Assembly: GCA_964652195.1 (NCBI GenBank)
Contig: CAZZBB010000076.1
Location: 16,228 to 80,227, forward strand
Direction: 5' to 3'
DNA length: 64,000 bases
Source: an uncultured bacterium
GTDB taxonomy: Bacteria; Poribacteria; WGA-4E; WGA-3G
Shown: positions 24,078-38,713 of the stretch, in pieces
How the letters are laid out: every line of letters starts with the position of its first letter
Numbering within the stretch: the stretch's first letter is position 1
Program-made: the position numbers and the translations under genes
The notes under the pieces: model-generated
The model's input: only the letters and a program-made list of their open reading frames with translations
Told to the model about the DNA's origin: nothing
Databases searched by the model: none

Positions 24078-25250
24078 TTGCAAATGAAAACAGAAGAGAA
24101 TAGTAGCTTAAATATTGAAAGTGCACGGGAATTAAACCGGCTTGCTTCTGAAGATATTTCACAGGGAGAGATTGAATCTGCATGTGAGAAATTACTTGAT
24201 GCAATTCGAATAGCACCTAACTTAGCTGCACCCCATACCAATTTGGGGGTTTTATATTGTTGGGAAGGAAAGTTGGATGAAGCAATTAGATTACATCTAA
24301 AAGCACTACATCTGGAGCCTAATCTCTCAGCACCACACACGAATCTTGGGGTAGCTTATGCATGGAATGGACAACTTGACATAGCAATTCAATCCGTTAA
24401 AGCTGCCCTCAAATTCAATCCAAATTCTGCGGAAGCACATACCTGTCTTGGGTTCATCTATATTTCCAAAGGTGATATTGAGGCTGCAATAGAATCAACA
24501 AATGAAGCAATCCGTCTCGGTGATGGGGGAGAAGCACATTCTAATCTTGGGTTAATCTATACATGGCAAGGACAATTTGATAAAGCTGTAGATCTCTATA
24601 AAAAGGCAATTGAAACCGATCCAACTTTAGCAGAACCGCATAACAATCTTGGATTGCTTTACATGTTTAAAGGGGAAAGTGATAATGCTATCAAAGCATT
24701 CAAGTCTTCCATCAAACACGATGGAGGAGAAGAACCACGTTCAAACCTTGGATTACTTTATACATGGCAAGGGGATTTCAAAAAAGCAATTTCCTTACAT
24801 CAAGAAGCAATTGAAATGGCACCGGATACAACGGAAGTTCATATCAATTTGGCATACACATACTTTTCTCAGAGTAAACTTGATGAAGCAATGAAGACTA
24901 TAAAGGATGCTCTACGGACAGACCCAAATTCCGCAGAAGCAAACAACAATATAGGAATAATCCATTTCTTACAAAATAGAACTACCGAAGCGATTTCTTC
25001 CTATAAAAAAGCAGGAACATTAGCTGAAGCACGAAACAATTTGGGAATCGTCTATTATCAACAAGGTAATCAAGATGCAGCAATTACGGAATTCAACGCA
25101 TCTATTGAAGCTGAAAACTTGGAGGAAGCAAACAACAATTTAAAAATGATAACTTCAAAATCAAAAACCGTTGATGCATCTGAACTTCAGATCTCTCCGA
25201 TTGGTGCACCGATGGGTGCACCCGCGGTATGGTGTGAAATTGTAGATTGA
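24078..25250 (+). CDS. Tetratricopeptide repeat protein
   Basis: About 9-10 TPR units (e.g. APHTNLGVLYCWEGKLDEAI, EAHSNLGLIYTWQGQFDKAV, EARNNLGIVYYQQG). Confidence 0.92.
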   Translation: MQMKTEENSSLNIESARELNRLASEDISQGEIESACEKLLDAIRIAPNLAAPHTNLGVLYCWEGKLDEAIRLHLKALHLEPNLSAPHTNLGVAYAWNGQLDIAIQSVKAALKFNPNSAEAHTCLGFIYISKGDIEAAIESTNEAIRLGDGGEAHSNLGLIYTWQGQFDKAVDLYKKAIETDPTLAEPHNNLGLLYMFKGESDNAIKAFKSSIKHDGGEEPRSNLGLLYTWQGDFKKAISLHQEAIEMAPDTTEVHINLAYTYFSQSKLDEAMKTIKDALRTDPNSAEANNNIGIIHFLQNRTTEAISSYKKAGTLAEARNNLGIVYYQQGNQDAAITEFNASIEAENLEEANNNLKMITSKSKTVDASELQISPIGAPMGAPAVWCEIVD

Positions 25251-25294
25251 GAAATCCTTAGATTTACTTAATAAAACTAATCACGGAGATAAAT

Positions 25295-26575
25295 ATGGAA
25301 AAGCTACCGAACATTGTTTTTATACTTGCTGATGATCACGGTTATGGTGATATCTCAGCACATAATGGACCCTCAATTCAAACACCACATATTGATAGAA
25401 TCGCAGATGAAGGCATACGACTTACACAATTCTATGCAAACTCATCTGTCTGTTCACCAAGTCGCGCATCGCTTATGACGGGTCGCTATCCGGATAGAGT
25501 TGGTGTGCCGGGGGTAATTCGAACACACCCAGAAAACAATTGGGGATATTTTCGACAGGATGCTATCACACTCCCATCAATATTAAAACAGAAAGATTAC
25601 AAAACATCTCTAATTGGTAAATGGCATCTTGGACTTGAAGATGAGAATCACCCATGTAAAAGAGGATTTGATTATTTTCACGGCTTTCTCGGTGATATGA
25701 TGGATGACTATTACACACATCTTCGCCATCAGAATAACTATATGCGTCGTGATTTTGAAACAATTGACCCAAGAGGACACGCTACCGATCTATTCTCAGA
25801 TTGGAGTGTTGAGTTTATCCAAGAACAGACACAATCTACACAACCCTTCTTTCTATATCTCGCATATAATGCACCGCACACACCGATTCAACCGCCGGAT
25901 GATTGGGTTGATAGAGTGAAGGATCGTGAACCAGATATTTCAGAACAACGGGCAAAATATATCGCTCTTGTTGAACACATGGATGCAGGTATTGGACGGG
26001 TTCTTGATTCACTTGAAAAAAACGATCAACTTTCAAATACTCTTGTGATTTATACATCTGACAACGGGGGGCAGATGGGGGTTGGAGCACATAACGGACC
26101 ACTCCGTGGGGAGAAGGGGCAGATGTATGAAGGTGGTATACGGGTGCCTACTTGTGCCATGTGGAAAGGAAATATTCCTCAAGGACATGTCTCAGATCAA
26201 GTCAGTATGATAATGGATTTTTATCCTACTCTTTGTGAAATAACAGGGATACATATAAACCATGATATTGAGGGACAGTCAATTTTGAAAACATTGCAAG
26301 GCGGAAAACAGGATCTATCCGAAAGGCTACTCTACTGGATTCGAAGAGAGGGAGGACAACAGTTCTTAGGAGATTGTCAACATGCAGTTAGACGTGGTGA
26401 TTTAAAACTGCTGCATAACAGACCCTTTGAACCACTTGAACTTTACGACTTATCAAATGATCCATTTGAAGCAACAGATACTGCCAAAACGAATACAGAT
26501 CTATTTAAAGAGATGGGGAATCTTTTTCAACAAGAAATACAGAAATCAGGGAGCATTCCTTGGCAAAAGGGATAA
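25295..26575 (+). CDS. Sulfatase (arylsulfatase A-like)
   Basis: PNIVFILADD, formylglycine motif CSPSR followed by LMTGRY, GKWHLG, YNAPH, SDNG, YEGGIRVP. Confidence 0.95.
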   Translation: MEKLPNIVFILADDHGYGDISAHNGPSIQTPHIDRIADEGIRLTQFYANSSVCSPSRASLMTGRYPDRVGVPGVIRTHPENNWGYFRQDAITLPSILKQKDYKTSLIGKWHLGLEDENHPCKRGFDYFHGFLGDMMDDYYTHLRHQNNYMRRDFETIDPRGHATDLFSDWSVEFIQEQTQSTQPFFLYLAYNAPHTPIQPPDDWVDRVKDREPDISEQRAKYIALVEHMDAGIGRVLDSLEKNDQLSNTLVIYTSDNGGQMGVGAHNGPLRGEKGQMYEGGIRVPTCAMWKGNIPQGHVSDQVSMIMDFYPTLCEITGIHINHDIEGQSILKTLQGGKQDLSERLLYWIRREGGQQFLGDCQHAVRRGDLKLLHNRPFEPLELYDLSNDPFEATDTAKTNTDLFKEMGNLFQQEIQKSGSIPWQKG

Positions 26576-26726: not shown

Positions 26727-26761
26727 TAACGTTGGTGTATACTATGTATACACCAACGTTA
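26727..26761. promoter_or_regulatory. Perfect 16-bp inverted repeat upstream of the grpE-hsp70 promoter (operator or terminator)
   Basis: taacgttggtgtatac-tat-gtatacaccaacgtta, ending 11 nt before the -35 box. Confidence 0.6.
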
Positions 26762-26772
26762 TTTCGTTAACA

Positions 26773-26801
26773 TTGACATGCCGTAAAATCCGTTGTATAA
26801 T
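26773..26801 (+). promoter_or_regulatory. Consensus sigma70 promoter of the Hsp70/J-like array locus
   Basis: TTGACA (26773-26778), 17-nt spacer, TATAAT (26796-26801). Confidence 0.8.
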
Positions 26802-26865
26802 CAAACAAAAACAATTTGAATGTATAATAGTCATTCCTACATCATAGGTATGAGAGGATTCAGTT

Positions 26866-27582
26866 TTGAGCAGTGAAATGAATAACGATCTTGATGCAAA
26901 ATTAAAAAAAATCTTGGATAGTCAGACAAACTTAGATACGGAAAATCCTGATGACACAGTAGATACTGTTGGAGATACCCCAATGGAGGACATGGAATTA
27001 CATCAGATAAATACACTTACTGAGATTAACCAGTCTTTGACGGTATTACTCGAATTATTTGAAAAACACATATCTGGAAATCAGAATCAAGTCCAGATGT
27101 TTGATAAAATGTATGCCGAAATGAAGGACTATAAAGAGAGTTTTCTACTTGAAGTACTTCATAAACCGGTTATCCATAACTTAATTCAACTCTACGATAG
27201 TTTTATATCACTTGAATCTCAACTTACTAACCTTATTGATGAGAATAATGATAACACACTATTAAATGAGTTGAGGCAATATAGTAGTAATTTACAGAAT
27301 TTTCGTTTTGAACTTGAAGAAGTTTTATACCGCATGGATGTAACACCCTATCAGAATTCACCAGATACATTGGATAGGCAGTTACATAAGACACGGAAAG
27401 TTATATCTACAGACGATCCAAATATGGATCAGAAAGTAGCAGAAGTGCATAAAATCGGATTCTATTGGCGTGAGAAAGTGTTTCGTCCGGAAGATGTAAC
27501 CATTTATCGTTATATGGCCTCCACAGAAAAATCTGAAAATGGTAATACTAAACATTCTTCAGATAAACAAAGGGGAGATTAA
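26866..27582 (+). CDS. grpE: GrpE-like nucleotide exchange factor
   Basis: Acidic N-terminal tail, long coiled coil, and C-terminal beta domain ...DQKVAEVHKIGFYWREKVFRPEDVTIY; its stop directly abuts the Hsp70 ATG. Confidence 0.8.
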   Translation: MSSEMNNDLDAKLKKILDSQTNLDTENPDDTVDTVGDTPMEDMELHQINTLTEINQSLTVLLELFEKHISGNQNQVQMFDKMYAEMKDYKESFLLEVLHKPVIHNLIQLYDSFISLESQLTNLIDENNDNTLLNELRQYSSNLQNFRFELEEVLYRMDVTPYQNSPDTLDRQLHKTRKVISTDDPNMDQKVAEVHKIGFYWREKVFRPEDVTIYRYMASTEKSENGNTKHSSDKQRGD

Positions 27583-29178
27583 ATGGGTAAAGTTGTCGGA
27601 ATAGATTTAGGTACGACATTTTCTGCGATAGCACATATAAATGAGCATGGACAACCTGAAATTATCCCCAATTTGGAGAGTGACCGAATTACACCATCGG
27701 TCGTAATGTTTGAAGACAATCTTGTAACCGTTGGAAAAATAGCTAAGCAGAATGCCAGAGCTGTCCCTGAACAAATTGTTGAGTTTATCAAAAGGGAGAT
27801 GGGTAAATCAAGAACGAATTTCTTCCGTACATTCGATGAAAAAGACTATTCCCCTGAAGAACTATCTGCGCTCATTATGAGGAAACTGAAACAAGATGCT
27901 GAGATCTATCTGAATGAAGAGGTGACTGATGCTGTAATCACTGTTCCTGCGTATTTTCACGACGCAGAAAGAGAAGCTACGCGAAATGCAGGGAAAATTG
28001 CTGGTTTTAATGTGCTTCAAGTCCTAAACGAACCGACCGCAGCTGCACTCGCTTATGGAATCGATCAACTTGGTAATAACCAAAATGTATTTGTATTTGA
28101 CCTTGGTGGTGGAACATTTGATGTGACAATTATGCAGGTCTCAGAATCTGAAATAAAAATGTTAGCAACAAATGGGGACCATCGGTTAGGGGGCAAAGAT
28201 TGGGACGACAAAATCATTACCTATGTTGCTGAGATGTTTGAGATAGAACATGGAGAGAATCCTCTGGATGATCTTCATACATATCAAGACCTTCAACTGG
28301 ATGCAATTGGAGCCAAAGAATCCTTATCTCAACGACAAAGAGCATTAATTGTATGTGGATATAACGGGAAGACAACCCGTGTTGAATTACTACGCGAGAA
28401 ATTTGAAGAACTTACGACAGATCTACTTGAAAGATGTCGAACTTTGTGTGAGTTAGTATTATCAGAGGCAGAAATGTCTTGGACAGATATTGACAAGATC
28501 TTATTGGTTGGGGGATCGACACGGATGCCTATGGTACAGGAAATGATCCGGTCAATAAGCGGTAAAGAGATTAATCCACATGAAGTTAATCCTGATGAGG
28601 TCGTCGCATTAGGAGCGGCTATTCAAGGAACTCTTCGTCAAATTACAGACGATACTGTTGAAACACCGGAAATGCCTGAAGCTGTTATAGAACGGTTTAT
28701 TGGACCGGATGGAGTACCAAAAGTCACTGTAACGGACGGTGCTACACATAATCTGGGTCTTGTTGTCCTCAATTCACAACGCGATTATATTATCCATGTT
28801 ATGATCCCAAAAATGACTGCTGTTCCGTGTGAAATTGCTGATCAATTCTTGACTGTTGACGAAAACCAACCAACTGTGCTAATTGAGGTAGTGCAAGGAC
28901 TTGAACAGGATCAACTTAGGGATCAAATACCATTTTTTGATGAATATAAGCTGGGAGAATGCACACTTGAATTACCTAACGGATTACCACAAGGATCTCC
29001 AATTGAGGTAAACTATAAATATAATTTAGACCAAAATCTCGAGGTAACAGCAAAATCATTGACAGATGACGGTCCTACAGCAGTTTTTGATATCTTTTCA
29101 ATAATTGATAGACCTACACTTAATGAAGAAGAAGTTTCCAAAGCACAAACAGATCTGCAAGAACTGACAGTTGAATAA
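27583..29178 (+). CDS. Non-canonical Hsp70 (DnaK-like) protein lacking the C-terminal lid
   Basis: GIDLGTTFS, TVPAYF, NEPTAAALAYG, VFDLGGGTFD, LVGGSTRMP, NPDEVVALGAAIQ; beta substrate-binding domain present; only 531 aa. Confidence 0.93.
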   Translation: MGKVVGIDLGTTFSAIAHINEHGQPEIIPNLESDRITPSVVMFEDNLVTVGKIAKQNARAVPEQIVEFIKREMGKSRTNFFRTFDEKDYSPEELSALIMRKLKQDAEIYLNEEVTDAVITVPAYFHDAEREATRNAGKIAGFNVLQVLNEPTAAALAYGIDQLGNNQNVFVFDLGGGTFDVTIMQVSESEIKMLATNGDHRLGGKDWDDKIITYVAEMFEIEHGENPLDDLHTYQDLQLDAIGAKESLSQRQRALIVCGYNGKTTRVELLREKFEELTTDLLERCRTLCELVLSEAEMSWTDIDKILLVGGSTRMPMVQEMIRSISGKEINPHEVNPDEVVALGAAIQGTLRQITDDTVETPEMPEAVIERFIGPDGVPKVTVTDGATHNLGLVVLNSQRDYIIHVMIPKMTAVPCEIADQFLTVDENQPTVLIEVVQGLEQDQLRDQIPFFDEYKLGECTLELPNGLPQGSPIEVNYKYNLDQNLEVTAKSLTDDGPTAVFDIFSIIDRPTLNEEEVSKAQTDLQELTVE

Positions 29179-29253
29179 ATTCCTACACAAATTTACATTT
29201 TCTTAGATAATATCATTAGCATTTCTACCTAAGGTTAACAACAGGATTTACGA

Positions 29254-30648
29254 ATGTCTGATCGAGATGAATTTATATCCTTTGTAACAGATTTTAAAGT
29301 TGTCTCACCTACTATTTCGGACGAACAACGTAAAGGTCTTTTACGGAGAGCTGTACATCAACACGGTCTTACAGTTGAAGATGCTAATGGAATATTGGAT
29401 AATACGGGTCTTGTAATTGGTGAACAACAGGTAAATTATTTTGAAGTATTAGGTATACTGCTTGAAGAGACTAAAAATAAGACCGAATCAGAGATTTCAG
29501 ATCATGTTGTTTCCATACACAAGAGACTATATAGTAAATCCTTGAATTCAGGGGGTCGTCCACGGCATGATGGAAGGTCAGAAGAACAGTGGCGAAGATT
29601 ATTGAATCAAGCTCGTGATGTCCTTATTGATCCCATTAAGAGGCAAGGATATATTGATGAGCTAAATACTTACGATAATGAAGATACTTACGATAATGAA
29701 GAGTTTCATGATGATATATCAATTAAGCCAACCACTTCTATAAGCAATTTATCATTTAATGTTGATGAAAGGGTTATACCAGCACACAAAAAAGTTGTAT
29801 TTACTGTAGTATTTTCACCTGATGGCACATGTGTTGCCAGTGGTAGTGCTGACAAATCAATATGTATCTGGGATATTCAGGCTGAAAAGCAGAAACATAT
29901 TCTTAATGGTCATAATGATACAGTAACATCTGTTAGGTATTCACCAGACGGTAAAACCATAGCAAGCGGGAGTTTTGACGGAACAGTATGTTTATGGAAT
30001 GCTAAATCCGGAGAGTTGAAAAAACGATTAACTGGACAAAAAGATAAGATTAGTTCCGTGGCTTATTCACCTGATGGAAAAACAATAGCAAGTGGAAGTT
30101 ATAATGGAACTATTCAATTATACAATGCTGAGACTGGTGAACCAAAAATCCTCCTCAAAGGACATAGAAATTGGGTTAGTTCAGTTGTATACTCACCTGA
30201 TGGGAAAACAGTTGCATGTGCAAGTTATGACGGGAAGGTCTATTTGTGGAATACTGAAACAGGCGTAAATATACATGTCCTAACAGGTCATAAATTTAGT
30301 GTTATCGCAGTAACCTATTCACCTAATTCTGATACAATCATAAGTACAGATCTGCAAGGAACAATTCTTGCCTGGAATGCAGTTTCTGGCGAACCAAGAA
30401 TCCTACCTACGGGTTTTATGTCCTGGATTAGTTCAGTAGCATATTCCCCGGATGCAACTATTCTCACTTGTGGTAGTTTTCATGGATCAATCACTTTATG
30501 GAATACAGATACATGGGAGGAATTAAAAACTATTAAGGGGCATACGTCAACTGTAAAAGCACTATCCTACTCTCCAGATGGAAGGATTCTGGCAAGCTGC
30601 GGTGGAGATGGTAATGTACGTCTTTGGAGTTCATCATTATACGAATAA
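29254..30648 (+). CDS. J-like N-terminal module fused to WD40 beta-propeller (array member 1)
   Basis: N-terminal ...VNYFEVLG...GGRPRHDGRSEEQWRRLLNQARDVLIDPIKR; seven WD40 repeats (GH...V.SV.YSPDG...ASGS.DG.V.LW). Confidence 0.9.
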   Translation: MSDRDEFISFVTDFKVVSPTISDEQRKGLLRRAVHQHGLTVEDANGILDNTGLVIGEQQVNYFEVLGILLEETKNKTESEISDHVVSIHKRLYSKSLNSGGRPRHDGRSEEQWRRLLNQARDVLIDPIKRQGYIDELNTYDNEDTYDNEEFHDDISIKPTTSISNLSFNVDERVIPAHKKVVFTVVFSPDGTCVASGSADKSICIWDIQAEKQKHILNGHNDTVTSVRYSPDGKTIASGSFDGTVCLWNAKSGELKKRLTGQKDKISSVAYSPDGKTIASGSYNGTIQLYNAETGEPKILLKGHRNWVSSVVYSPDGKTVACASYDGKVYLWNTETGVNIHVLTGHKFSVIAVTYSPNSDTIISTDLQGTILAWNAVSGEPRILPTGFMSWISSVAYSPDATILTCGSFHGSITLWNTDTWEELKTIKGHTSTVKALSYSPDGRILASCGGDGNVRLWSSSLYE

Positions 30649-30734
30649 TACCTACTCAAGCTGCCGATCATTAATGATAGAATACTACAACTGAATTATA
30701 CAGGTTCATATAGAATTTCAAATTGGTTTAATTA

Positions 30735-31985
30735 ATGTCCAAGCGCGATGAATTCTTTGCTTTTATCAATACTCTCAAAGATGCATCACCTACGATTACT
30801 GACGAACAGCGTAAAGGTTTTCTCAGGCTTGCAGTTGAAAAATATGGTTTAACTGTTGATGAAGCAACATCTATATTCAATGCATCGGGTATAATAATTG
30901 GTGAAATAGTTGATCTATTTGAAATCTTTGGATTAACTGGCATAGAGATTAAGAGATATAATCAATCTGAAATTGTCGATCGCGTTGAGTCAATCCATAG
31001 TAAACTATATAGTGAATCTTTAAAGTCCGGGGGTCGTCCGCGTCCAGATGGTAGGTCAGAGGAACAGTGGCGAAGATTGTTAAATCAAGCACGAGACACA
31101 CTAACTGACCCGAAAAAACGTCACGAATATCTTGCAACACTTCAATATAAAGAACCATTAACTGAAACAATTTCAGGAACTACAAGCCTTGAGAATATGT
31201 CACTTATTCCTGAAGGTGAGTTTGAAATGGGTAGCAACGATGACGAGACTTTTGATGATGAACATCCGGTTCATACCGTTTTTCTAAACGAATTCTATAT
31301 TGACCAATATCCTGTAACCAATGCACAATACAAGGCATTCCTTGATGCGAATCCACAGTGGAATAAGCATGAAATCCCAAAAAAGTATTGTGATGTTGAC
31401 TATCTTAAGCATTGGCGTAGGAGTAGTTTTCCAAGTGGGGAAGCAGATTATCCTATTGTCAATGTAAGTTGGTATGCTGCTATGGCTTATGCTCAATGGC
31501 GAGGTAAACGTCTTCCCACTGAAGCTGAATGGGAAAAAGCTGCACGTGGTGGTCTTGCCGGCAAACAATACCCATATGGTAATTCATTAGATTCTACTCA
31601 AGCGAATTATGACTGGAATGAGGGACATGCCACACCCGTTGCCAAATATCCTTCTAATGGATATGAACTTTATGACATGTGTGGCAATGTTTGGGAATGG
31701 TGTCTTGATAGATATGAGAAACATTATTATAGAAACTCACCGACTCGTAACCCTATTGCTGGTGATGATACTATTGACTGGTTGAATGACAACTTCTTAG
31801 ATATTAAATCCAATCGTGTATTACGTGGTGGTTCATGGCGGATACCTGCCTCATTAGTGAGAACAGCAAAACGAAATGCAGAATCTCCCATGTTTTCACT
31901 GAATGTGATTGGGTTTCGTTGTGTAATTCAAGCTTTACCGACAGATAATTCTCATTTCCCTCCTACCGTAGGATATGCTGCCTAA
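30735..31985 (+). CDS. J-like module plus FGE-sulfatase/SUMF1-fold domain (array member 2)
   Basis: Shared N-terminal module; [65 protein letters not shown]. Confidence 0.9.
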   Translation: MSKRDEFFAFINTLKDASPTITDEQRKGFLRLAVEKYGLTVDEATSIFNASGIIIGEIVDLFEIFGLTGIEIKRYNQSEIVDRVESIHSKLYSESLKSGGRPRPDGRSEEQWRRLLNQARDTLTDPKKRHEYLATLQYKEPLTETISGTTSLENMSLIPEGEFEMGSNDDETFDDEHPVHTVFLNEFYIDQYPVTNAQYKAFLDANPQWNKHEIPKKYCDVDYLKHWRRSSFPSGEADYPIVNVSWYAAMAYAQWRGKRLPTEAEWEKAARGGLAGKQYPYGNSLDSTQANYDWNEGHATPVAKYPSNGYELYDMCGNVWEWCLDRYEKHYYRNSPTRNPIAGDDTIDWLNDNFLDIKSNRVLRGGSWRIPASLVRTAKRNAESPMFSLNVIGFRCVIQALPTDNSHFPPTVGYAA

Positions 31986-32007
31986 CCTTCTCTATCGAAA
32001 TTAGACT

Positions 32008-33393
32008 ATGCTTAAACGTAATGAGTATATAGACTTTATAAATGAATTTAAAACTGTATCTCCAACTATCACAGATGAACAAAGGATTGGTCTTCTGCGA
32101 CGAGGTGTTCAACAACATGGTCTATCAATTTCTGAGGCAGAGAACATAATTCTATCATCAGGATTAATTATCGGTGAACAGATAGATTATTTTCAAATAT
32201 TAGGATTATCCATAGAAGATATACAGAATCAAAACGAGGACTTAATTACAACAGAAGTTGATACGATACACAGAAAACTATATAACGCCTCCTTAAAAGC
32301 AGGAGGTCGTATACGATCAGATGGTAGGACTGAGGAACAGTGGCGTATCATACTAAATGAAGCACGGGATACTCTCAAGAATGTTGAAAAACGAAAATCT
32401 CATATTGAAATACTACAAACCGATGTTCTACCCCCGATTGAAATCCTATCTGAAGATACTCCTATACAAGAAACTGAAACAACACAAGAAACAATTCCAA
32501 CACAACCGACAGAACAGTCAAGTGTGTTGCCATCAGTAGAAGTTCTTCCTGAAGATGAATCTATTCAAAGAACTGATACTCTTGAAGAATCCATTTCATC
32601 ACAACCCGTAGTAGAAGATGGTATGGCACTCATTCCTGCCGGAGAATTTCAAATGGGGAGTAACGATATTGAGGCTTACAATGACGAAAAGCCTATACAT
32701 ACTGTATACATAGATACATTCTATATTGATCAATATCCTGTCACGAATGTAGAATATAAAGAGTTTATTGATGCCAATCCTGAATGGCATAAACCCAAAA
32801 AATGGTATGATAATACTGGAAATATTGATGGTATTCACAAGAAATATCATGACGGTGATTACCTAAAGACTTGGAAAAGAAACAACTTTCCAAAAAATGA
32901 AGTTCATCATCCTGTAACTTGGGTGAGTTGGTATGCTGCAATGGCTTACGCACAATGGAAAGGTAAACGACTACCAACCGAAGCTGAATGGGAAAAAGCT
33001 GCACGAGGTGGTTTGACAGGACAAAAATATCCATGGGGAAATACCATAAGCCTGAATCGTCTAAACTACGATCTATATATCAGTAATACAACCGAAGTAG
33101 GTCAATATCCTGAAAATGGTTATGGTATTTATGATATGGCGGGAAATGTATTTGAATGGTGTATAGATGTATGGAATGAAAACTACTATATTAATTCTCC
33201 ATACAATAATCCTGTCGCTGATGGATATTTAGCAGATATTTTAGCTGATTTCACAAGTGTAATGACACCGAGAGTGGTGCGTGGTGGATCTTCTGTAAGT
33301 ACTCCGAGAAACACACGGGTTTCATATCGACATAGAAATACACCTAAATTGACATGTTTTAGTATTGGATTCCGTTGTGTAAGATCTAAATAA
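32008..33393 (+). CDS. J-like module plus FGE-sulfatase-fold domain (array member 3)
   Basis: Same architecture; long E/T/Q/P-rich linker. Confidence 0.9.
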   Translation: MLKRNEYIDFINEFKTVSPTITDEQRIGLLRRGVQQHGLSISEAENIILSSGLIIGEQIDYFQILGLSIEDIQNQNEDLITTEVDTIHRKLYNASLKAGGRIRSDGRTEEQWRIILNEARDTLKNVEKRKSHIEILQTDVLPPIEILSEDTPIQETETTQETIPTQPTEQSSVLPSVEVLPEDESIQRTDTLEESISSQPVVEDGMALIPAGEFQMGSNDIEAYNDEKPIHTVYIDTFYIDQYPVTNVEYKEFIDANPEWHKPKKWYDNTGNIDGIHKKYHDGDYLKTWKRNNFPKNEVHHPVTWVSWYAAMAYAQWKGKRLPTEAEWEKAARGGLTGQKYPWGNTISLNRLNYDLYISNTTEVGQYPENGYGIYDMAGNVFEWCIDVWNENYYINSPYNNPVADGYLADILADFTSVMTPRVVRGGSSVSTPRNTRVSYRHRNTPKLTCFSIGFRCVRSK

Positions 33394-33422: not shown

Positions 33423-34595
33423 ATGGCTGAAAATAAAGAATTCATCGCATTTGTAAATAGATTAAAAACACTATCACCAACCATAACCGAAGAGCAGCGT
33501 ATTGGTCTTCTGCGGCAAGGTGTGCAAGAATATAGCCTCACTACAGATGAAGCGGATAATATTCTGAAAACATCAGGATTAATTGTTGGAGAACAAGATA
33601 GTTATTTTGATGTCTTAGGAATCTCAATTGAAGAACTAGAAAATCTTAGTGACGCTGATATCCTTGCACATGTTGAATCTTCCCACGCCAAACTTTACCG
33701 AGAATCATTGAATGCAGGGGGTCGTCCAAGAACCGATGGTAGGACAGAAGAAGAGTGGCGGACACTTCTAAATCAAGCTCGAGATACATTAATAGATTCT
33801 GATATACGACGATTACACTATACAAATTTACAACATGCAGAAACTTCTTTAGATGATGGGATAACACATCAAAGTTCTGAAAATATGGTGTTAATCCCAG
33901 AAGGAGAGTTTCAGAATGAGTATATTGATGCATTCTATATAGACTCATATCCGGTTACGAATCTACAGTACAAGTTATTCCTGGATGCAAACCGTCAGTG
34001 GAAGATTCCTAAACTAATTGATGTTTTTAGGATGGGGAAATTTAGAGATGGAGACTATTTGAAGACTTGGGTAAGGAACAAATTTCCACCTGGGAAAGAA
34101 GATCATCCTGTAACTTGGGTGAGTTGGTATGCAGCAATGGCATACGCTCAATGGTTAGGTAAAAGATTACCCACAGAAGCAGAATGGGAAATAGCGGCAC
34201 GTGGAGGTTTAATAGAGAAAAAATTTCCATGGGGGAATTCGGTTGATCATTCTTTAGCAAATTATAATAAATACATAGGTGAGACAACTCCTATTGGTAA
34301 ATATCCTGCTAACAATTATGATGTATATGATATGGTTGGGAATGTATCTGAGTGGTGTTTAGATGAATGGGATAGAGACGTAAATCAATCTTCCTTTCGA
34401 ATAAATCCAGTTGAAGAAGAGAGTATTGAGGATATAATAGAGAATTATTCCGAATCGAGAAAGAAACGTGTATTAAAAGGTAGTTCATGGTATTCTTCCA
34501 CTAAAGACCTACAGATATCCTACAGATACGGATTAGCACCAAGGAAAACAGTAAGCGTAGTAGGATTTCGCTGTGTGAAACCAATTAATAAGTAA
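33423..34595 (+). CDS. J-like module plus FGE-sulfatase-fold domain (array member 4)
   Basis: Same architecture; lacks the MGS...HxV hairpin found in all siblings. Confidence 0.88.
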   Translation: MAENKEFIAFVNRLKTLSPTITEEQRIGLLRQGVQEYSLTTDEADNILKTSGLIVGEQDSYFDVLGISIEELENLSDADILAHVESSHAKLYRESLNAGGRPRTDGRTEEEWRTLLNQARDTLIDSDIRRLHYTNLQHAETSLDDGITHQSSENMVLIPEGEFQNEYIDAFYIDSYPVTNLQYKLFLDANRQWKIPKLIDVFRMGKFRDGDYLKTWVRNKFPPGKEDHPVTWVSWYAAMAYAQWLGKRLPTEAEWEIAARGGLIEKKFPWGNSVDHSLANYNKYIGETTPIGKYPANNYDVYDMVGNVSEWCLDEWDRDVNQSSFRINPVEEESIEDIIENYSESRKKRVLKGSSWYSSTKDLQISYRYGLAPRKTVSVVGFRCVKPINK

Positions 34596-34637: not shown

Positions 34638-35930
34638 ATGCGTGAATATGAAGAATTTATCTCTGTCATTAATACACTCAAAGTACTATCAACGATCATC
34701 ACTGAAGCACAACGTATTGGTCTTTTGCAACAAGGTGTGCAAGAATTTGGTCTCACTACAGATGAAGCGGATAATATTCTGAATACATCAGGATTAGTTG
34801 TTGGAGAACAAGATAGTTATTTTGATGTCTTAGGAATATCAATTGAAGAACTTGAAAAACTCAGTGAAGCTGATATCCTTGCACATGTTGAATCTGTCCA
34901 CGACAAACTTTACCGAACATCTTTGAATGCAGGGGGTCGTCCGCGGTCTGATGGCAGATCAGAAGTAGAGTGGCGAAACCTTTTGAATCAAGCAAAAGAT
35001 ACAATAACAGATCCCCTAAAAAGAAGTGAATATATTTCCATTCTACAACAGGTAAAAATACAGGATTTCAGTGCTGAACCATCACAGGAATTGGATTCAT
35101 CCGATGCAAACACAAATAGACCTCATGCCTTAAGTAATACATTTGTACCAGATGGTATTGATGTGCCTGATGACATGGTATATATACCAGCAGGTGAATT
35201 TCAAATGGGGAGTGAACATGCAGATGCTGAGGAGGATGAACAGCCTATTCACACAGTTTTTGTTAATGCATTTCTTATGGATAAAAATCCTGTGACAAAT
35301 AGAGAATTTAGAGAATTTCTACATACTAATCCTGAGTGGCAGAAACCTGATCATCTTAATTATCATATCATTTCGAATTTTCATGATGGTTCATATTTGA
35401 AGGATTGGCAGATGAATATGTATCCACCTGGAAAACGTGATCATCCAGTGACGCAGGTGAGTTGGTTTGCTGCGATGGCGTATGCCAGATCAGTAGGTAA
35501 GCGTCTGCCGACTGAAGCAGAATGGGAAAGAGCAGCACGCGGCGGCTTGGATGGTAAACACTATTCTTGGAGTAATGTTGAAGATTTCGTTAATGCAGAT
35601 GAGTATTTAAATGCTGAAGATACTTTACCAATCGGTCTTACACCTGCCAATAACTATGGACTTTATGATATGTGTGGCAATGTATGGGAATGGTGTCTTG
35701 ATGCATATAATGAGGATTTCTATAACGAGGCACCATAGAATAACCCATTTTATGGACCTAATAGCAAAGAATGGGTAGTAGAAAACTTTAGCCGTATAAC
35801 AATCGAACGTGTATTACGCGGTGGTCCTTGGGGTTTTGATGCTTTAGGGGCACGAGTTTCACAACGACTCAGTAGTGCCCCAACCGATACTTTACCAACT
35901 TACAGTTTTCGTTGTATAAAGTATATTTGA
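34638..35930 (+). pseudogene. J-like module plus FGE-sulfatase-fold domain (array member 5) with one in-frame TAG
   Basis: ORF stops at TAG 35736-35738, but the same frame continues NNPFYGPNSKEWVVENFSRITIERVLRGGPW...YSFRCIKYI to TGA at 35930. Confidence 0.85.
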
Positions 35931-35995: not shown

Positions 35996-37276
35996 ATGGC
36001 AAAACGTGAAGAATTCATTCAGCTTATCAACACTTTTAAAGCGGTGTCAGCTACAATAACAAACAATCAAAGACGAGGTTTGTTGCAGCAAGCTGTACAG
36101 ATCTATGATCTCTCTATTGAAGAAGGTATAGAGATATTGGATTCATTAGGAATAGTTGTTGGGGATGAGGTAAATTATTTCGAGATATTAGGACTATCCA
36201 TTGAGGAAATACAAGGCAAGGATGACCAGACGGTTACTGATATTGTTAAAATAGCACATGATGACTTGTATAAAGTCTCCTTAACTGCTGGAGGACGGGT
36301 CAGATCAGATGGAAGGACTGAAGACCAGTGGCGAATATTACTGAATCAAGCGCGGAATATTCTGGGTGAAAAAGAAAAAAGAAACGAATACATCTCTGCT
36401 CTTCTTCAAGAAGAGTCTAAAGAATTTTCAACTCCGAATACACCTACGATTCCGAGTACCGAACCAAATTCTATTGAAATTGTATCTGAACCGACCTCTC
36501 ACATAATAACAGATCCTGACGATATAGAAATACCATCTGAAATGGTATTGATCCCTTCAGGAGTATTTATTATAGGATCTCAAAGTAAAGACATAAACGG
36601 TAGTGATTTACCACTACATAATGTGTACTTACACTCATTCCTGATTGATAAATATCCTGTAACTAATTCTGAATTCCGTGTTTTTCTCACTGAGAACGAA
36701 CAATGGCAGAAGAAATACATATCCGAAAAATATCACAATGGTAAATACCTTAGATCTTGGAACGGGAATAACTATCCAAAAAATAAAGACAATGATCCGG
36801 TTGTCGATATAAGTTGGTATGCTGCAATGGCTTATGCTCAATGGATAGAGAAACGACTTCCTACAGATATTGAATGGGAAAAAGCTGCACGTGGAGGGTT
36901 AACTGAAAAAACGTATCCCTGGGGCGATGATATTACTAACGACCTGGCGAATTACGGAATGTTTGTCGGGAATACAACCCCTGTTGGAAACTACCCTCCA
37001 AATGAGTATGGTGCGTTTGATATGGTTGGCAATGTATGGGAATGGTGTCTTAATCATTATGAACATATTGAAGCATTTAGTAAACCAAGTATATCTGTTG
37101 AACAGATGAGTAATATCTTAGATTCCTATTTAGATGTCGAAAGCAATCGTGTGTTACGTGGAGGTTCATGGGCAAGTAGTGAACGAGCTCTTTCGGTTGC
37201 ATATAGAGGTAGTGCTGCTCCTAGTTGTACATATTACAGTTACGGATTTCGATGTGTTAAGGATATTCATAGATAA
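35996..37276 (+). CDS. J-like module plus FGE-sulfatase-fold domain (array member 6)
   Basis: Same architecture; GGRVRSDGR loop; RVLRGGSW...YGFRCV. Confidence 0.9.
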   Translation: MAKREEFIQLINTFKAVSATITNNQRRGLLQQAVQIYDLSIEEGIEILDSLGIVVGDEVNYFEILGLSIEEIQGKDDQTVTDIVKIAHDDLYKVSLTAGGRVRSDGRTEDQWRILLNQARNILGEKEKRNEYISALLQEESKEFSTPNTPTIPSTEPNSIEIVSEPTSHIITDPDDIEIPSEMVLIPSGVFIIGSQSKDINGSDLPLHNVYLHSFLIDKYPVTNSEFRVFLTENEQWQKKYISEKYHNGKYLRSWNGNNYPKNKDNDPVVDISWYAAMAYAQWIEKRLPTDIEWEKAARGGLTEKTYPWGDDITNDLANYGMFVGNTTPVGNYPPNEYGAFDMVGNVWEWCLNHYEHIEAFSKPSISVEQMSNILDSYLDVESNRVLRGGSWASSERALSVAYRGSAAPSCTYYSYGFRCVKDIHR

Positions 37277-37336: not shown

Positions 37337-38713
37337 ATGGCAAAACGTGAAGAATTTATAGATGCAATCAATTTGTTTAGGTCTGCCTCACAATCCATAT
37401 CGGTAGAACAACGGATAGGACTTTTACAACAAGCTGTACAAGAGTATGGACTATCAATAAAAGAAGCTGATGAGATAATCAAAGAAACAGGGCTAATAGT
37501 CGGCGGGACTATTAATTACTTTAGGGTCTTAGGTTTGTCCAATCATGAATTTGAAAATCTAAATGAAACCACTATTACATCAATTATAGATGAAGCACAT
37601 AGAAAACATTATACAGAATCATTAAGAGCTGGGGGACTTCCTCGTCCTGACGGGAGAACCCAAGAACAGTGGCGAATCATCCTAAATCATGCACGATATA
37701 CTTTAATAGATCCTCATAAACGCGAAGAATATCTATCACAATTATTGAGAGAAGAAGATTCATCTGATAGTTTCATTAATGATGTTTCCAACAATAATAC
37801 CACTGATACAGAAAACTATAATCCGAATCTTGCCCAGTCAATCTCAACTGATAATAAAGAACATTTAGCGCATGCACCTTCGATTGTAGAAAATAAACAA
37901 GTATTTATTCATCCTGATGTACCTGCAAATATGGCATATATCCCTGCTGGTGACTTCAGGATGGGGAGTAATGATGAAAAAGTTGGAAACATAGAAAAAC
38001 CTGCCCATGTTGTGTATGTTGACGAGTTTATTATAGACAAGTATTTAGTTACCAATGCAGAATATAAAGAGTTTGTAGATGCTAACCCTCAATGGGCAAA
38101 GCCAACAAAATGGTATCACTTTGAGAAACAGAAGAAATCCTATATACATGAAAAATACCATGATGGAGATTATCTTAAGCATTGGAATGAGAATACATAC
38201 CCTGATAGTAAAGCAGAACATCCAGTGACATGGGTGAGTTGGTATGCAGCAATGGCGTATGCTGAATGGGTGGGTAAACGTCTCCCAACAGAAGCAGAAT
38301 GGGAAAAAGCTGCGCGCGGTGGAATAACTGGACAGAATTATCCTTGGGGAGAATCAATTGATTATACTAAGGCTAATTATAATAGCTATATTGGTGAAAC
38401 AACTTCTGTAGGTGAGTATCCAGCAAACGGATATGGAATTCATGATATGATAGGAAATGTTTGGGAATGGTGTCTTGACGAGTATCAGGAAAATTACTAT
38501 GCAAGTTCAGAACGCAAGAACCCAATTTGTGGTGTAAATACGGTTGAATCAATAGAATATAGTGATATGGATAATAGACATGCACGGGTAATGCGAGGAG
38601 GTTCTTGGCTTGATTCCTCTCAATTCGTCCGTTCTGCATCCCGTTACAGGAACACCCCTATACGTACTCTCGCAAGAATTGGGTTTCGTTGTGTAAAAAT
38701 CGTTCCTTCATAA
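37337..38713 (+). CDS. J-like module plus FGE-sulfatase-fold domain (array member 7)
   Basis: Same architecture; GGLPRPDGR loop. Confidence 0.9.
   Translation: MAKREEFIDAINLFRSASQSISVEQRIGLLQQAVQEYGLSIKEADEIIKETGLIVGGTINYFRVLGLSNHEFENLNETTITSIIDEAHRKHYTESLRAGGLPRPDGRTQEQWRIILNHARYTLIDPHKREEYLSQLLREEDSSDSFINDVSNNNTTDTENYNPNLAQSISTDNKEHLAHAPSIVENKQVFIHPDVPANMAYIPAGDFRMGSNDEKVGNIEKPAHVVYVDEFIIDKYLVTNAEYKEFVDANPQWAKPTKWYHFEKQKKSYIHEKYHDGDYLKHWNENTYPDSKAEHPVTWVSWYAAMAYAEWVGKRLPTEAEWEKAARGGITGQNYPWGESIDYTKANYNSYIGETTSVGEYPANGYGIHDMIGNVWEWCLDEYQENYYASSERKNPICGVNTVESIEYSDMDNRHARVMRGGSWLDSSQFVRSASRYRNTPIRTLARIGFRCVKIVPS

What the first reader, a model, noticed from the sequence alone, without database searches (positions are those of the whole stretch)
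27583..29178. Hsp70 with a rewired J-domain interface: R167-equivalent is Gln, linker is VTVTD, long linker insertion, no lid
Seen: the DnaK segment VKRIINEPT reads VLQVLNEPT (CAA at 28018-28020). The linker VLLLD reads VTVTD (28723-28737) and is preceded by a ~20 aa insertion (DDTVETPEMPEAVIERFIGPDG). The protein ends shortly after the first lid helix. ATP-binding and catalytic motifs (GIDLGT, the K70-equivalent in IKREMG, NEP, GGGTFD) are intact. Known: DnaK R167 and the hydrophobic 389-VLLL-392 linker are central contacts for the DnaJ HPD loop. Inference: an active ATPase that has co-evolved with the HPD-less modules next door, forming a pair insulated from housekeeping DnaK/DnaJ.
Basis: partly seen in the sequence, partly recalled or inferred. 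Interest (0 to 1): 0.72.

Follow-up and report, generated by a model that had tools for sequence, protein, structure and literature searches.

The report
Lidless Hsp70 with private J-like partners
This gene encodes a shortened Hsp70 chaperone of a sponge-associated bacterium (Poribacteria) that sits in one operon with its own GrpE-like factor and nine partner proteins whose J-like docking domains have lost the universal HPD motif, and both sides of the docking surface have changed together, so the pair is probably cut off from the cell's ordinary DnaK/DnaJ system.

Summary
The 531-aa Hsp70 (27583-29178) has Gln at the DnaK-R167 position, VTVTD for VLLLD, a 22-aa insertion before the linker and no lid beyond helix A. 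All ATPase residues are intact.

These traits are not peculiar to this gene. They define a large, uncharacterised clade of lidless bacterial Hsp70s ("DnaK derivates"). In that clade position 167 is R, D, Q, K, G, S or A, the linker alternates polar and hydrophobic residues, and the protein stops about 19 residues after DnaK-507.

Nine downstream paralogues carry an N-terminal module with a J-domain fold and no HPD (0 of 279 Poribacterial copies). It is fused to catalytically dead FGE-like lectin-fold domains or to WD40.

In a control sample, 68/68 canonical DnaKs keep R167 and 51/51 neighbouring DnaJs keep HPD. Lidless Hsp70s are almost always next to HPD-less J-like proteins.

In Poribacteria the electrostatic steering surface is inverted on both partners. 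However, residue 167 does not track the J-loop in detail: R and Q pair with the same loop. Q146 therefore looks like relaxed constraint, not a specific compensation.

Verdict: interpretation partly supported; a new variant of a known kind; cellular function unknown.

The parts
26773..26801 (+). Perfect sigma-70 consensus promoter (TTGACA-17-TATAAT) 65 nt upstream of the grpE-like start. It marks the start of the GrpE-Hsp70-module transcription unit.
   Evidence: 12/12 match. The same promoter with a conserved spacer lies about 85-100 nt upstream of grpE in at least 18 of 33 Poribacterial loci.
26727..26761 (+). 16-bp perfect hairpin followed by a T-tract, between the sulfatase gene and the promoter. 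It is terminator-like or an operator.
   Evidence: It is not conserved in other loci.
26866..27582 (+). GrpE-like nucleotide exchange factor (238 aa). Its stop codon abuts the Hsp70 start codon.
   Evidence: Pfam GrpE 34.7 bits, above the 25.8 cut-off. A GrpE gene lies directly upstream of lidless Hsp70s in 32/47 Poribacterial loci and in other phyla.
27583..29178 (+). Lidless Hsp70 (531 aa): NBD, modified linker, SBD-beta and lid helix A only.
   Evidence: Pfam HSP70 E = 5e-122. It scores below the NCBIfam DnaK and HscA cut-offs. The AF2 model has pLDDT 88.5 and pTM 0.90, and best matches ATP-state docked DnaK.
28018..28020 (+). Codon CAA = Gln146, the equivalent of DnaK R167.
   Evidence: The residue is Q in 44 and H in 3 of 47 Poribacterial orthologues.
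28648..28713 (+). 22-aa insertion between the end of the NBD and the linker. The model shows a short helix at aa 366-372 with moderate confidence.
   Evidence: An insertion of 14-66 residues occurs here throughout the lidless clade.
28723..28737 (+). Interdomain linker VTVTD (DnaK 389-VLLLD-393), predicted as a beta-strand.
   Evidence: KVTVTDGATH is invariant in 44/47 Poribacterial orthologues.
29125..29160 (+). The only remaining lid element (helix A, aa 515-526). The protein ends with the conserved tail DLQxLxVE.
29254..30648 (+). Module 1: N-terminal helical plus J-like domain (no HPD; loop GGRPRHDGR) fused to a 7-blade WD40 propeller.
30735..31985 (+). Module 2: J-like N-module plus an FGE-sulfatase-like (C-type-lectin fold) domain that lacks the catalytic Cys pair.
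32008..33393 (+). Module 3: J-like N-module plus FGE-like domain.
33423..34595 (+). Module 4: J-like N-module plus FGE-like domain. The N-terminal part of the FGE-like domain is shortened.
34638..35738 (+). Module 5: J-like N-module plus FGE-like domain, cut by an in-frame stop at 35736-35738. The rest of the domain continues in the same frame.
35996..37276 (+). Module 6: J-like N-module plus FGE-like domain.
37337..38713 (+). Module 7: J-like N-module plus FGE-like domain.
38770..40155 (+). Module 8: J-like N-module plus FGE-like domain.
40505..41980 (+). Module 9: J-like N-module plus FGE-like domain, with an internal 96-nt tandem duplication.
24078..26575 (+). Syntenic upstream neighbours: a TPR protein (24078-25250) and a cytoplasmic Cys-type sulfatase with a CSPSR motif (25295-26575). 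They probably form a separate transcription unit.
   Evidence: A sulfatase lies upstream in 43/47 loci and a TPR gene in 17/47. A hairpin and promoter separate them from grpE.

Best explanation
The gene encodes a Poribacterial member of a widespread, uncharacterised clade of lidless Hsp70 paralogues ('DnaK derivates').

Shown:
- It is a complete, catalytically competent Hsp70 core: NBD, linker, peptide-binding SBD-beta and lid helix A only.
- It is co-transcribed with its own GrpE-like exchange factor and an array of nine adaptor proteins.
- Each adaptor has a roughly 55-aa helical domain plus a J-domain fold in which HPD is replaced by an invariant G-G-x-x-R-x-D-G-R loop. This is followed by a binding domain: an FGE-like lectin fold without catalytic cysteines, or WD40.

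Inferred:
- The J-like module docks at the usual NBD/linker/SBD-beta site, but through a re-made surface.
- The HPD(D35)-R167 trigger is gone.
- The charge complementarity that steers DnaJ onto DnaK is inverted on both partners.
- The system therefore works as a private Hsp70 circuit that housekeeping DnaJ cannot drive, and whose adaptors cannot drive DnaK.
- The lectin-like and WD40 domains choose the targets. The lidless Hsp70 binds and releases them quickly, and GrpE resets it.

Gln146 itself is best read as relaxed constraint. Arg167 is needed only to read the HPD aspartate, so once the clade lost HPD the position drifted (R, D, Q, K, G, S, A) and was fixed as Q in Poribacteria.
For: Anatomy and intact catalysis.

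The traits are clade-wide. 72 lidless representatives share the alternating linker, a 14-66-aa insertion and a 19-residue tail. Among 128 representatives position 167 is R in 30, D in 22, Q in 16, K in 14 and G in 10.

J-fold of the N-module:
- AF2 pLDDT 82.
- The 18 best Foldseek PDB hits are all J-domains, probability up to 0.98.
- The only profile hits in the PDB are HscB, Jac1 and DnaJ.
- 0/279 modules have HPD and 0/241 FGE-like domains have the Cys pair.

Dedicated unit:
- GrpE-Hsp70-modules synteny holds in 47 loci. A module follows the Hsp70 directly in 46/47.
- The promoter is conserved.

Class-level association:
- Canonical DnaK: R167 in 68/68, with a neighbouring J carrying HP[DE] in 51/51.
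- Non-canonical Hsp70s: 14 J-like neighbours without HPD against 4 with it. Two of those 4 loci are near-canonical, lid-bearing Hsp70s.
- Examples: L066-L071, L073, L074, L080-L085 and L110.

Charge inversion:
- In Poribacteria (n = 47), Hsp70 position 206 is K/R in 62%, position 217 is Q in 91% and position 477 is K/R in 91%. The same positions are acidic in 91-97% of 68 canonical DnaKs.
- J helix II net charge is -1.0 (n = 268) against +2.7 (n = 51). The K26 equivalent is E/D in 79% of modules.
- These are the residues named as J-positioning contacts in Mayer 2021 (PMC8215388).

Other points:
- Q378, P419 and D393 are retained.
- The AF2 model adopts the docked ATP-like state: TM 0.86 to 7KRT and 5NRO.
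Against: - There is no biochemical evidence that the modules bind or stimulate this Hsp70. Docking at the J site is inferred from fold and charge patterns only.
- The loop alignment is ambiguous. HPD aligns either with (R/L)-P-R of the loop or with the S-x-S just before it.
- The class-level association counts lineages that are not independent.
- Some lidless Hsp70s keep R167 although their partner lacks HPD (L070, L071, L073). One J-like partner keeps NHPD (L076).
- 15 of 47 Poribacterial loci lack a recognisable GrpE.
- No canonical DnaK/DnaJ from this organism was examined.
- AF2 commonly returns the docked state for Hsp70s.
Confidence: 0.65

Rival explanations
1. Strict version of the first reader's idea. 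Gln146 and the VTVTD linker are specific compensatory changes that co-evolved residue for residue with the GGRPRxDGR loop. In this reading Gln146 reads the loop Arg that replaces D35.
For: One MAFFT alignment places (R/L)-P-R of the loop on H-P-D, so D35 would become Arg while R167 becomes Gln. The sister clade L073 has R167 together with a different loop, RRMPPNNPRK. Several pairs look charge-compatible: H or K at 167 with NAPD, D167 with SPH, and R167 with NHPD.
Against: Q167 (L066) and R167 (L070, L071) Hsp70s have the same QNAP[KR] loop. Q to H changes in three Poribacterial loci come with no loop change. A larger alignment puts HPD elsewhere. The alternating linker and the insertion are clade-wide whatever the loop type.
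Confidence: 0.15
2. The J-like modules are not ATPase triggers at all. Having lost HPD, they act only as tethers, as eukaryotic J-like proteins do, or they are themselves clients of the Hsp70. The lidless Hsp70 then cycles on its basal ATPase plus GrpE.
For: Replacing H or D of HPD abolishes stimulation in every system tested (Mayer 2021). R167 is free to vary. The lid is absent, which implies fast substrate exchange (literature cited in PMC12642450).
Against: The loop G-G-x-x-R-x-D-G-R is nearly invariant in 268 modules, and W/R/N/R of helix III are invariant. This argues for a conserved functional contact rather than a passive tether. Q378, P419, D393 and R151 of the allosteric path are retained.
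Confidence: 0.25
3. The system is a sulfatase-maturation helper. The FGE-like domains bind the CxPxR motif of unfolded sulfatases, as the inactive paralogue SUMF2/pFGE does, and recruit the Hsp70 to keep them unfolded for modification or export.
For: A Cys-type sulfatase (CSPSR) lies directly upstream in 43/47 loci. The best solved-structure relatives of the C-domain are true FGEs and SUMF2.
Against: Both catalytic cysteines are missing, with a 3-residue deletion, in 241/241 copies. The same N-module is fused to WD40, ankyrin and unknown domains. A hairpin plus a conserved consensus promoter separates the sulfatase from the operon. Sister loci (L073, L074) have no sulfatase.
Confidence: 0.1
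4. The operon is an Hsp70-gated intracellular recognition or conflict (immune-like) system. Diversified lectin-fold and WD40 sensors detect invader or host molecules, and the Hsp70 acts as the NTP-dependent switch.
For: FGS (FGE-like) domains are proposed as invader-sensing lectins coupled to NTPases, often in several paralogous copies (PMC8195603; PMC7159879). Lidless DnaK-like domains are fused to EACC1-protease death modules (PMC12642450). The sister locus L073 carries a caspase-like gene and an Hsp70-vWA fusion. Arrays hold 1-9 diverged paralogues, and there are orphan arrays as well.
Against: The Poribacterial operon has no recognisable toxin or effector domain. Its chromosomal synteny is stable across the phylum, unlike that of mobile defence islands. 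There is no meaningful PADLOC hit. No DGR-type template/variable repeat is present.
Confidence: 0.2
5. The gene is a decaying, non-functional DnaK duplicate, and R167Q and the linker changes are simply damage.
For: It lacks the lid, R167 and the hydrophobic linker, all of which are important in DnaK.
Against: Orthologues are 69-95% identical across the phylum, with all catalytic residues, the linker KVTVTDGATH and the C-terminal tail conserved. The same architecture is conserved in many phyla.
Confidence: 0.02

Closest known systems
DnaK-DnaJ-GrpE (canonical bacterial Hsp70 system)
   Same: The Hsp70 fold and all ATPase and most allosteric residues (K70, E171, D194, T199, D201, P143, R151, Q378, D393, P419). 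A GrpE partner encoded next door. Partner proteins with a J-domain fold.
   Different: No lid beyond helix A. R167 is Gln. VLLLD is VTVTD. There is a 22-aa insertion before the linker. The acidic J-positioning residues E206, E217 and D477 are neutral or basic. The partners lack HPD and have an acidic rather than basic helix II. It scores at about half of the NCBIfam DnaK cut-off.
HscC-DjlB/DjlC of E. coli (specialised Hsp70 with private J-proteins)
   Same: A specialised Hsp70 with a shortened lid, encoded beside dedicated, non-DnaJ J-proteins with a variant triad (HPE). It is not stimulated by DnaJ (PMC8215388; PMC10410713).
   Different: Only 31% identical. HscC keeps R167, has the linker VILTD and 83 residues after position 507, lacks the pre-linker insertion (13 residues against 33) and works without GrpE.
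Lid-truncated 'DnaK derivates' of complex bacteria such as Myxococcus xanthus (FEBS J 2026, PMC13580251)
   Same: [quoted passage not shown]
   Different: That review does not, in the passages I read, describe the dedicated GrpE, the HPD-less J-like partners, the loss of R167 or the J-like-FGE/WD40 arrays.
J-like proteins without HPD in eukaryotes (DNAJB13 from PMC10410713; Pam16/Tim16 from my own knowledge)
   Same: A J-domain fold with a degenerate HPD triad.
   Different: Those are single proteins that work alongside canonical Hsp70s and true J-proteins. Here a whole bacterial Hsp70 clade and its neighbours have both changed.
FGS (FGE-sulfatase-like) lectin-fold sensors of NTPase-centred conflict systems (Kaur et al. 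2020, 2021)
   Same: A non-catalytic FGE-like C-type-lectin-fold domain, present in several diverged paralogues and coupled to an NTPase.
   Different: The coupling there is by fusion to STAND or GTPase domains or by EAD adaptors, often with a DGR. Here it is through a J-like domain to an Hsp70, with no DGR and no effector domain in sight.
Lidless DnaK-like domains fused to EACC1-protease defence modules (bioRxiv 2025, PMC12642450)
   Same: [quoted passage not shown]
   Different: That one is fused to a protease/pore-forming module. This one is free-standing, with GrpE and J-like adaptors.
SUMF2/pFGE (inactive paralogue of formylglycine-generating enzyme)
   Same: An FGE fold without the catalytic cysteine pair. 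PDB 1Y4J is a hit at E = 1e-27.
   Different: SUMF2 is a secretory-pathway protein with no J-like domain and no Hsp70 link.

Membership tests
Hsp70 superfamily (Pfam PF00012) | Profile match above the gathering score, covering the NBD and SBD-beta. | tested here: met
   408.5 bits against a cut-off of 20.6, covering residues 4-526 on profile positions 1-515/599.
Hsp70 superfamily (Pfam PF00012) | Catalytic and nucleotide-binding residues D8, K70, E171, D194, T199, D201. | tested here: met
   All are identical in the alignment with E. coli DnaK.
DnaK (orthologue of the housekeeping Hsp70) | NCBIfam equivalog score (TIGR02350 cut-off 822.55; NF001413 cut-off 648). | tested here: not met
   412.7 and 427 bits.
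DnaK (orthologue of the housekeeping Hsp70) | R167, the hydrophobic VLLL linker, an alpha-helical lid, and acidic E206/E217/D477. | tested here: not met
   Q146, VTVTD, 19 residues after position 507, and Q/K/K at the three acidic positions. All 68 canonical controls have R167 and L391.
HscA | NCBIfam TIGR01991 equivalog score (cut-off 708.55). | tested here: not met
   325.2 bits.
HscC | Close similarity to E. coli HscC and its features: R167, a partly retained lid, HPE-type DjlB/DjlC partners and no GrpE. | tested here: not met
   31% identity. HscC has R167 and 83 residues after position 507. Its partners carry HPE.
Lidless 'DnaK-derivate' clade (no curated model) | The protein ends about 19 residues after DnaK-507. 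The linker alternates polar and hydrophobic residues and ends in D/N. There is an insertion of at least 14 residues before the linker. Position 167 is variable. | tested here: met
   All four features are shared with 72 representative clusters at 40-65% identity.
J-domain (Pfam PF00226) | Profile match above the gathering score (27.8 bits). | tested here: not met
   Best scores are 14.8 and 12.5 bits, E = 0.03-0.16.
J-domain (Pfam PF00226) | Four-helix J fold. | tested here: met
   AF2 pLDDT 82. Foldseek ranks 1-18 are all J-domains, with TM (normalised to target) up to 0.73 and probability up to 0.98. E-values are only 0.2-1.5.
J-domain (Pfam PF00226) | HPD tripeptide in the helix II-III loop. 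| tested here: not met
   0 of 279 Poribacterial modules. The loop is G[GA]xxRxDG[RK].
J-domain (Pfam PF00226) | Stimulation of the Hsp70 ATPase. | not testable with these tools
   This needs biochemistry.
GrpE (Pfam PF01025) | Profile match above the gathering score. | tested here: met
   34.7 bits against 25.8. No NCBIfam GrpE model is reached.
Formylglycine-generating enzyme (FGE/SUMF1) | FGE-sulfatase domain (PF03781). | tested here: met
   E = 1e-57 to 1e-62 for the modules.
Formylglycine-generating enzyme (FGE/SUMF1) | Catalytic cysteine pair (GGS-x-x-C-x-x-x-x-C). | tested here: not met
   In the alignment to solved FGE structures (6MUJ, 2Q17, 5NXL) the query has RIPASL plus a 3-residue gap opposite LCHDSYCNR. 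0/241 Poribacterial copies have the pair.
Known anti-phage defence systems (PADLOC 2.0) | A significant match of a core component. | tested here: not met
   Only marginal or repeat-driven hits: Hsp70 to PDC-M61B at E = 3e-4, plus WD40 and TPR repeats.

The most novel reading that the evidence does not exclude
Poribacteria, and with other adaptor types many other phyla, carry a naturally orthogonal Hsp70 circuit. It consists of a lidless Hsp70 whose J-docking surface is charge-inverted and which no longer uses the HPD-R167 trigger. It is driven only by its own HPD-less J-like adaptors. Those adaptors carry a diversified repertoire of lectin-fold, WD40 or ankyrin recognition domains. This would be a chaperone-powered intracellular recognition system, possibly for immunity or host interaction, and it would imply a second, HPD-independent way of switching an Hsp70.
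Probability: 0.25. Interest if true: 0.8.

Novelty: new variant of a known kind. Interest (0 to 1): 0.6.

Why it matters
HPD and R167 are treated as near-universal requirements for J-domain control of Hsp70s. This locus points to a large bacterial clade in which both have been given up together and the docking surface has been rebuilt. The clade still keeps an intact ATPase, an intact allosteric core and its own exchange factor.

If the J-like modules still regulate the Hsp70, that would reveal an HPD-independent trigger and a ready-made orthogonal Hsp70/co-chaperone pair. If they only tether, it would show how Hsp70s are repurposed as recruited binding modules.

It also gives a concrete, testable handle on the uncharacterised 'DnaK derivates'. 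Finally, it links non-catalytic FGE-like lectin domains, which have been proposed as intracellular sensors, to a chaperone motor.

Tried and rejected
- HscC membership. I fetched E. coli hscC, djlB and djlC. Identity is 31%, R167 and part of the lid are retained, and the partners carry HPE. Rejected.
- True FGE activity of the modules. The cysteine pair is absent in 241/241 copies. Rejected.
- DGR-type diversification. No near-identical template/variable repeat exists in 26800-42100, and the paralogues are 60-86% identical at the DNA level.
- Known defence system. PADLOC gave nothing meaningful.
- Homologue search with the 140-aa N-module alone. It gave only 9 hits, all Poribacterial fragments.
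- Genome scan with the module motif. It found only Poribacteria (64 loci), so it could not by itself show the wider distribution.
- Metagenome scan intended to collect D167-type Hsp70s. I used those as the control set instead.
- Residue-level covariation between position 167 and the J-loop. The few pairs are partly compatible with a charge rule but contradicted by L066 against L070/L071.
- Conserved operator. The 16-bp palindrome upstream of the promoter is not conserved.
- Literature searches. I found no description of a GrpE-lidless Hsp70-HPD-less J-like-FGE/WD40 operon. Barriot et al. 2020 (J Mol Biol) was not in the library, so prior mention there cannot be excluded.
Full report
**1. The observation**

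The ORF 27583-29178 (+) encodes 531 aa.
- CAA at 28018-28020 is Gln146 in FNVLQVLNEPT.
- VTVTD is aa 381-385 (28723-28737).
- DDTVETPEMPEAVIERFIGPDG is aa 356-377.

phmmer alignments against solved DnaK structures put Q146 opposite the Arg of VLRIINEPT. I also aligned the protein with E. coli DnaK, after checking that the DnaK numbering reproduces R167, V389-D393, K70 and E171. That alignment gives the following:
- Q at position 167.
- VPKVTVTDGA against VKDVLLLDVT.
- 33 instead of 11 residues between Q378 and V389.
- 19 instead of 132 residues after position 507.
- D8, G10, K70, E171, D194, T199, D201, P143, D148 and R151 unchanged.

Pfam HSP70 matches only to profile position 515/599.

It is not a chance variant. 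In 68 canonical DnaK genes from metagenomes, R167 and L391 are invariant.

**2. The neighbourhood**

The layout on the + strand is as follows:
- a TPR protein (24078-25250);
- a cytoplasmic Cys-type sulfatase (25295-26575);
- a hairpin (26727-26761) and a perfect sigma-70 consensus promoter (26773-26801);
- a GrpE-like gene (26866-27582; Pfam GrpE above threshold) whose stop codon abuts the Hsp70 start codon;
- the Hsp70;
- nine paralogous genes (29254-41980), separated by gaps of 22-349 nt.

All nine paralogues share a roughly 140-aa N-terminal module with an invariant loop GG(R/L)xRxDGR. The first continues into a WD40 propeller and the other eight into an FGE-sulfatase-like domain.

The organism is a member of Candidatus Poribacteria. 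The best Hsp70 homologues, at 70-95% identity, are named so. All 64 genome loci found with the module motif are Poribacterial MAGs.

**3. The N-module is a J-domain fold without HPD**

- Pfam DnaJ is reached only below threshold: E = 0.03, aligned over profile positions 2-61/63.
- A profile of 14 modules finds only HscB, Jac1 and DnaJ in the PDB, at E = 0.1-0.7.
- The AlphaFold model (pLDDT 82) has three N-terminal helices followed by a helix II - loop - helix III - helix IV unit.
- The 18 best Foldseek hits in the PDB are all J-domains, with probability up to 0.98.
- None of 279 Poribacterial modules contains HPD. The loop between helices II and III is G[GA]xxRxDG[RK].
- Which loop residues are equivalent to H-P-D depends on the alignment. 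It is (R/L)-P-R and the preceding S-x-S.

**4. The C-terminal domains are binding domains, not enzymes**

The closest solved relatives are true formylglycine-generating enzymes. However, opposite the catalytic LCHDSYCNR the modules have RIPASL plus a 3-residue gap. 0 of 241 Poribacterial copies have the cysteine pair.

The same N-module is also fused to WD40 (21 copies), to ankyrin repeats and to an unknown domain in related loci.

**5. The unit is conserved in Poribacteria**

Of 47 loci with the Hsp70:
- 46 have a module directly downstream;
- 32 have the GrpE-like gene upstream;
- 43 have the sulfatase upstream;
- 17 have the TPR gene upstream.

Arrays hold 1-9 modules within the fetched flanks. 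Eighteen further loci are arrays without an Hsp70.

The consensus promoter, with a conserved spacer, recurs about 85-100 nt upstream of grpE in at least 18 of 33 loci. This makes GrpE-Hsp70-modules the transcription unit and sets the sulfatase apart.

Across these orthologues Q146 is Q in 44 and H in 3. The linker KVTVTDGATH is invariant in 44/47.

**6. The four traits belong to a large clade, not to this gene**

An exhaustive HMMER search of 1.84 billion representatives returned, among the best 150, 72 clusters of 490-565 aa at 40-65% identity. They share these features:
- a tail of almost always exactly 19 residues after DnaK-507;
- a linker of alternating polar and hydrophobic residues ending in D/N (for example IEVID, FKVQD, VTITD);
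- an insertion of 14-66 residues before it;
- intact catalytic residues.

Position 167 in 128 representatives is R in 30, D in 22, Q in 16, K in 14, G in 10, S in 9 and A in 8, plus a few others.

Members occur in Bacillota (Thermoactinomycetaceae), Cloacimonadota and Planctomycetota, and are annotated only as 'Hsp70 family protein'.

They are not HscC. E. coli HscC is 31% identical, keeps R167 and part of the lid, and has HPE partners.

The literature position is as follows:
- The standard review recognises only DnaK, HscA and HscC in prokaryotes (PMC8215388).
- A 2026 review calls lid-truncated 'DnaK derivates' unexplored dark matter (PMC13580251).

**7. Partners of the clade elsewhere**

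Gene neighbourhoods of clade members show the same logic, with these J-like partners:

| Locus | Residue at 167 | Partner | J-like loop |
|---|---|---|---|
| L066 | Q | J-like-TPR | QNAPK |
| L070, L071 | R | J-like-TPR | QNAPK / QNAPR |
| L067 | H | J-like-TPR | TNAPD |
| L068 | K | J-like-TPR | TNAPD |
| L074 | D | J-like-TM-FGE-like protein | no HPD |
| L073 (65% identical to the window protein) | R | three proteins with the same N-module architecture, fused to ankyrin or unknown domains | RRMPPNNPRK |
| L076 | R and A (two lidless Hsp70s) | one J-like protein between them | keeps NHPD |

L066, L067, L070 and L071 also have a GrpE gene upstream of the Hsp70; none was detected in L068. L073 additionally sits beside a caspase-like gene and an Hsp70-vWA fusion.

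**8. Control sample**

I classified the Hsp70s in these loci and in the neighbourhood loci above (L065-L157) by linker and spacing.
- 68 were canonical. All 68 have R167, and all 51 neighbouring J proteins have HP[DE].
- 28 were non-canonical. 19 are not R at position 167. Among those with a J-like neighbour within 2 kb, 14 neighbours lack HPD and 4 have it. Two of those 4 loci are near-canonical, lid-bearing Hsp70s.

That condition is not met.

The detailed claim fails, though. Q167 and R167 Hsp70s share one loop type. Q to H changes in Poribacteria come without loop changes.

The simplest reading uses the known contact map: R167 is needed to read D35 of HPD (contact map in PMC8215388 and PMC7289447). 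Once the clade's partners gave up HPD, position 167 was released from constraint.

**9. A broader, two-sided change of the interface**

DnaJ is positioned on DnaK by basic residues R22, K26, R27, K48 and K51. These face acidic E206, D211, E217 and D477 on DnaK (PMC8215388).

On the Hsp70 side:

| DnaK position | 68 canonical DnaKs | 47 Poribacterial Hsp70s |
|---|---|---|
| 206 | acidic in 97% | K/R in 62% |
| 217 | acidic in 91% | Q in 91% |
| 477 | D in 94% | K/R in 91% |

Q378, P419 and D393 stay conserved in the Poribacterial proteins.

On the J side:
- Canonical neighbours have K/R at positions 22, 26 and 27 in 82-100%, and a helix II net charge of +2.7 ± 1.0 (n = 51).
- The 268 modules have A/V/T at position 22, E/D at position 26 in 79%, and a net charge of -1.0 ± 1.4.

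Both partners have therefore lost, and partly reversed, the canonical charge complementarity. This is what an orthogonal pair would look like. It is sequence inference only; binding was not tested.

**10. Structure**

The AlphaFold model of the Hsp70 has pLDDT 88.5 and pTM 0.90. It shows:
- the linker as a beta-strand (382-386);
- a short helix (366-372) in the insertion, at moderate confidence;
- a single C-terminal helix (515-526).

It superposes best on ATP-state, domain-docked DnaK, including the J-domain complex 5NRO (TM 0.84-0.86, rmsd 2.7-2.8 Å). It superposes poorly on undocked states (TM 0.52-0.60). This is compatible with canonical allostery, although AF2 often prefers this state.

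**11. What it most likely does**

Shown:
- a catalytically intact lidless Hsp70;
- its own GrpE-like gene;
- an array of J-fold adaptors with non-catalytic recognition domains;
- conserved co-location and a conserved promoter;
- a two-sided change of the J interface.

Inferred:
- The adaptors dock at the remodelled J site and recruit the Hsp70 to whatever their lectin-fold or WD40 domains bind.
- The missing lid gives fast client exchange.
- GrpE resets the cycle.
- Housekeeping DnaJ cannot engage.

The cellular role is open. I rate three possibilities:
- An intracellular recognition or conflict role is suggested by published views of FGS domains and of lidless DnaK-like fusions and by the L073 context. 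It is weakened by the lack of any effector and by the stable synteny.
- A sulfatase-maturation role is suggested by the sulfatase neighbour. It is weakened by the dead active site, the non-FGE adaptor variants and the separate promoter.
- Decay of the gene is excluded by conservation.

**12. Novelty**

The protein class is known to exist but is uncharacterised. I did not find the following described in the searchable literature:
- the pairing of this clade with HPD-less J-like partners and a dedicated GrpE;
- the release of R167;
- the charge inversion;
- the Poribacterial J-like-FGE/WD40 arrays.

One relevant paper, Barriot et al. 2020, was not available. I rate the finding as a new variant of a known kind.

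Noticed in passing
window 35736-35930: Module 5 stops at an in-frame stop codon (35736-35738). The same frame then continues with the missing C-terminal part of the FGE-like domain (...RVLRGGPWGF...YSFRCIKYI). This is a nonsense mutation, a pseudogene or a sequencing error.
   Followed up: partly
window 41173-41329: Module 9 carries a 96-nt tandem duplication (61-nt cores, 97% identical). It repeats [27 protein letters not shown] inside the FGE-like domain.
   Followed up: no
window 26727-26801: A perfect 16-bp inverted repeat (TAACGTTGGTGTATAC-TAT-GTATACACCAACGTTA) lies directly upstream of a 12/12 consensus promoter. The promoter and its spacer are conserved in many Poribacterial loci, but the palindrome is not.
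   Followed up: partly
L033 5812-6717, L037 5903-6802, L044 5651-6616: In a second type of Poribacterial locus there is no GrpE-like gene. A roughly 300-aa ankyrin-repeat protein lies between the sulfatase and the Hsp70. In L009, L010 and L048 the Hsp70 follows the sulfatase directly.
   Followed up: partly
L073 3-7513: The closest non-Poribacterial relative (65% identity, R167) lies downstream of a caspase-like peptidase gene (FAGHG / DACFSG motifs), a repeat protein and an Hsp70-vWA fusion of 692 aa. This context is typical of proposed prokaryotic conflict systems.
   Followed up: partly
L076 4196-8533: GrpE, a lidless Hsp70 with R167, a 220-aa protein whose C-terminal J-like domain keeps NHPD, and a second lidless Hsp70 with A167 lie in a row. 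This is a two-Hsp70 variant of the system.
   Followed up: no
L036 6605-10414 and L046 6611-10414: ORFs of about 1268 aa carry the J-like N-module at their C-terminal end instead of the N-terminus. The remainder was not identified.
   Followed up: no
L060 10001-12502; L073 8960-12156: A further C-terminal domain type recurs behind the N-module in Poribacteria and in the sister clade (motif IxKFxNGxEATxIPQLAxLM...). It has no Pfam match.
   Followed up: no
window 10811-13012 and 19598-21583: Two diverged paralogues of a large secreted protein (733 and 661 aa) share an N-terminal region (…IDG.L.E..W…F.Q..P.EG…). They lie on opposite strands, well upstream of the operon, and were not analysed.
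   Followed up: no
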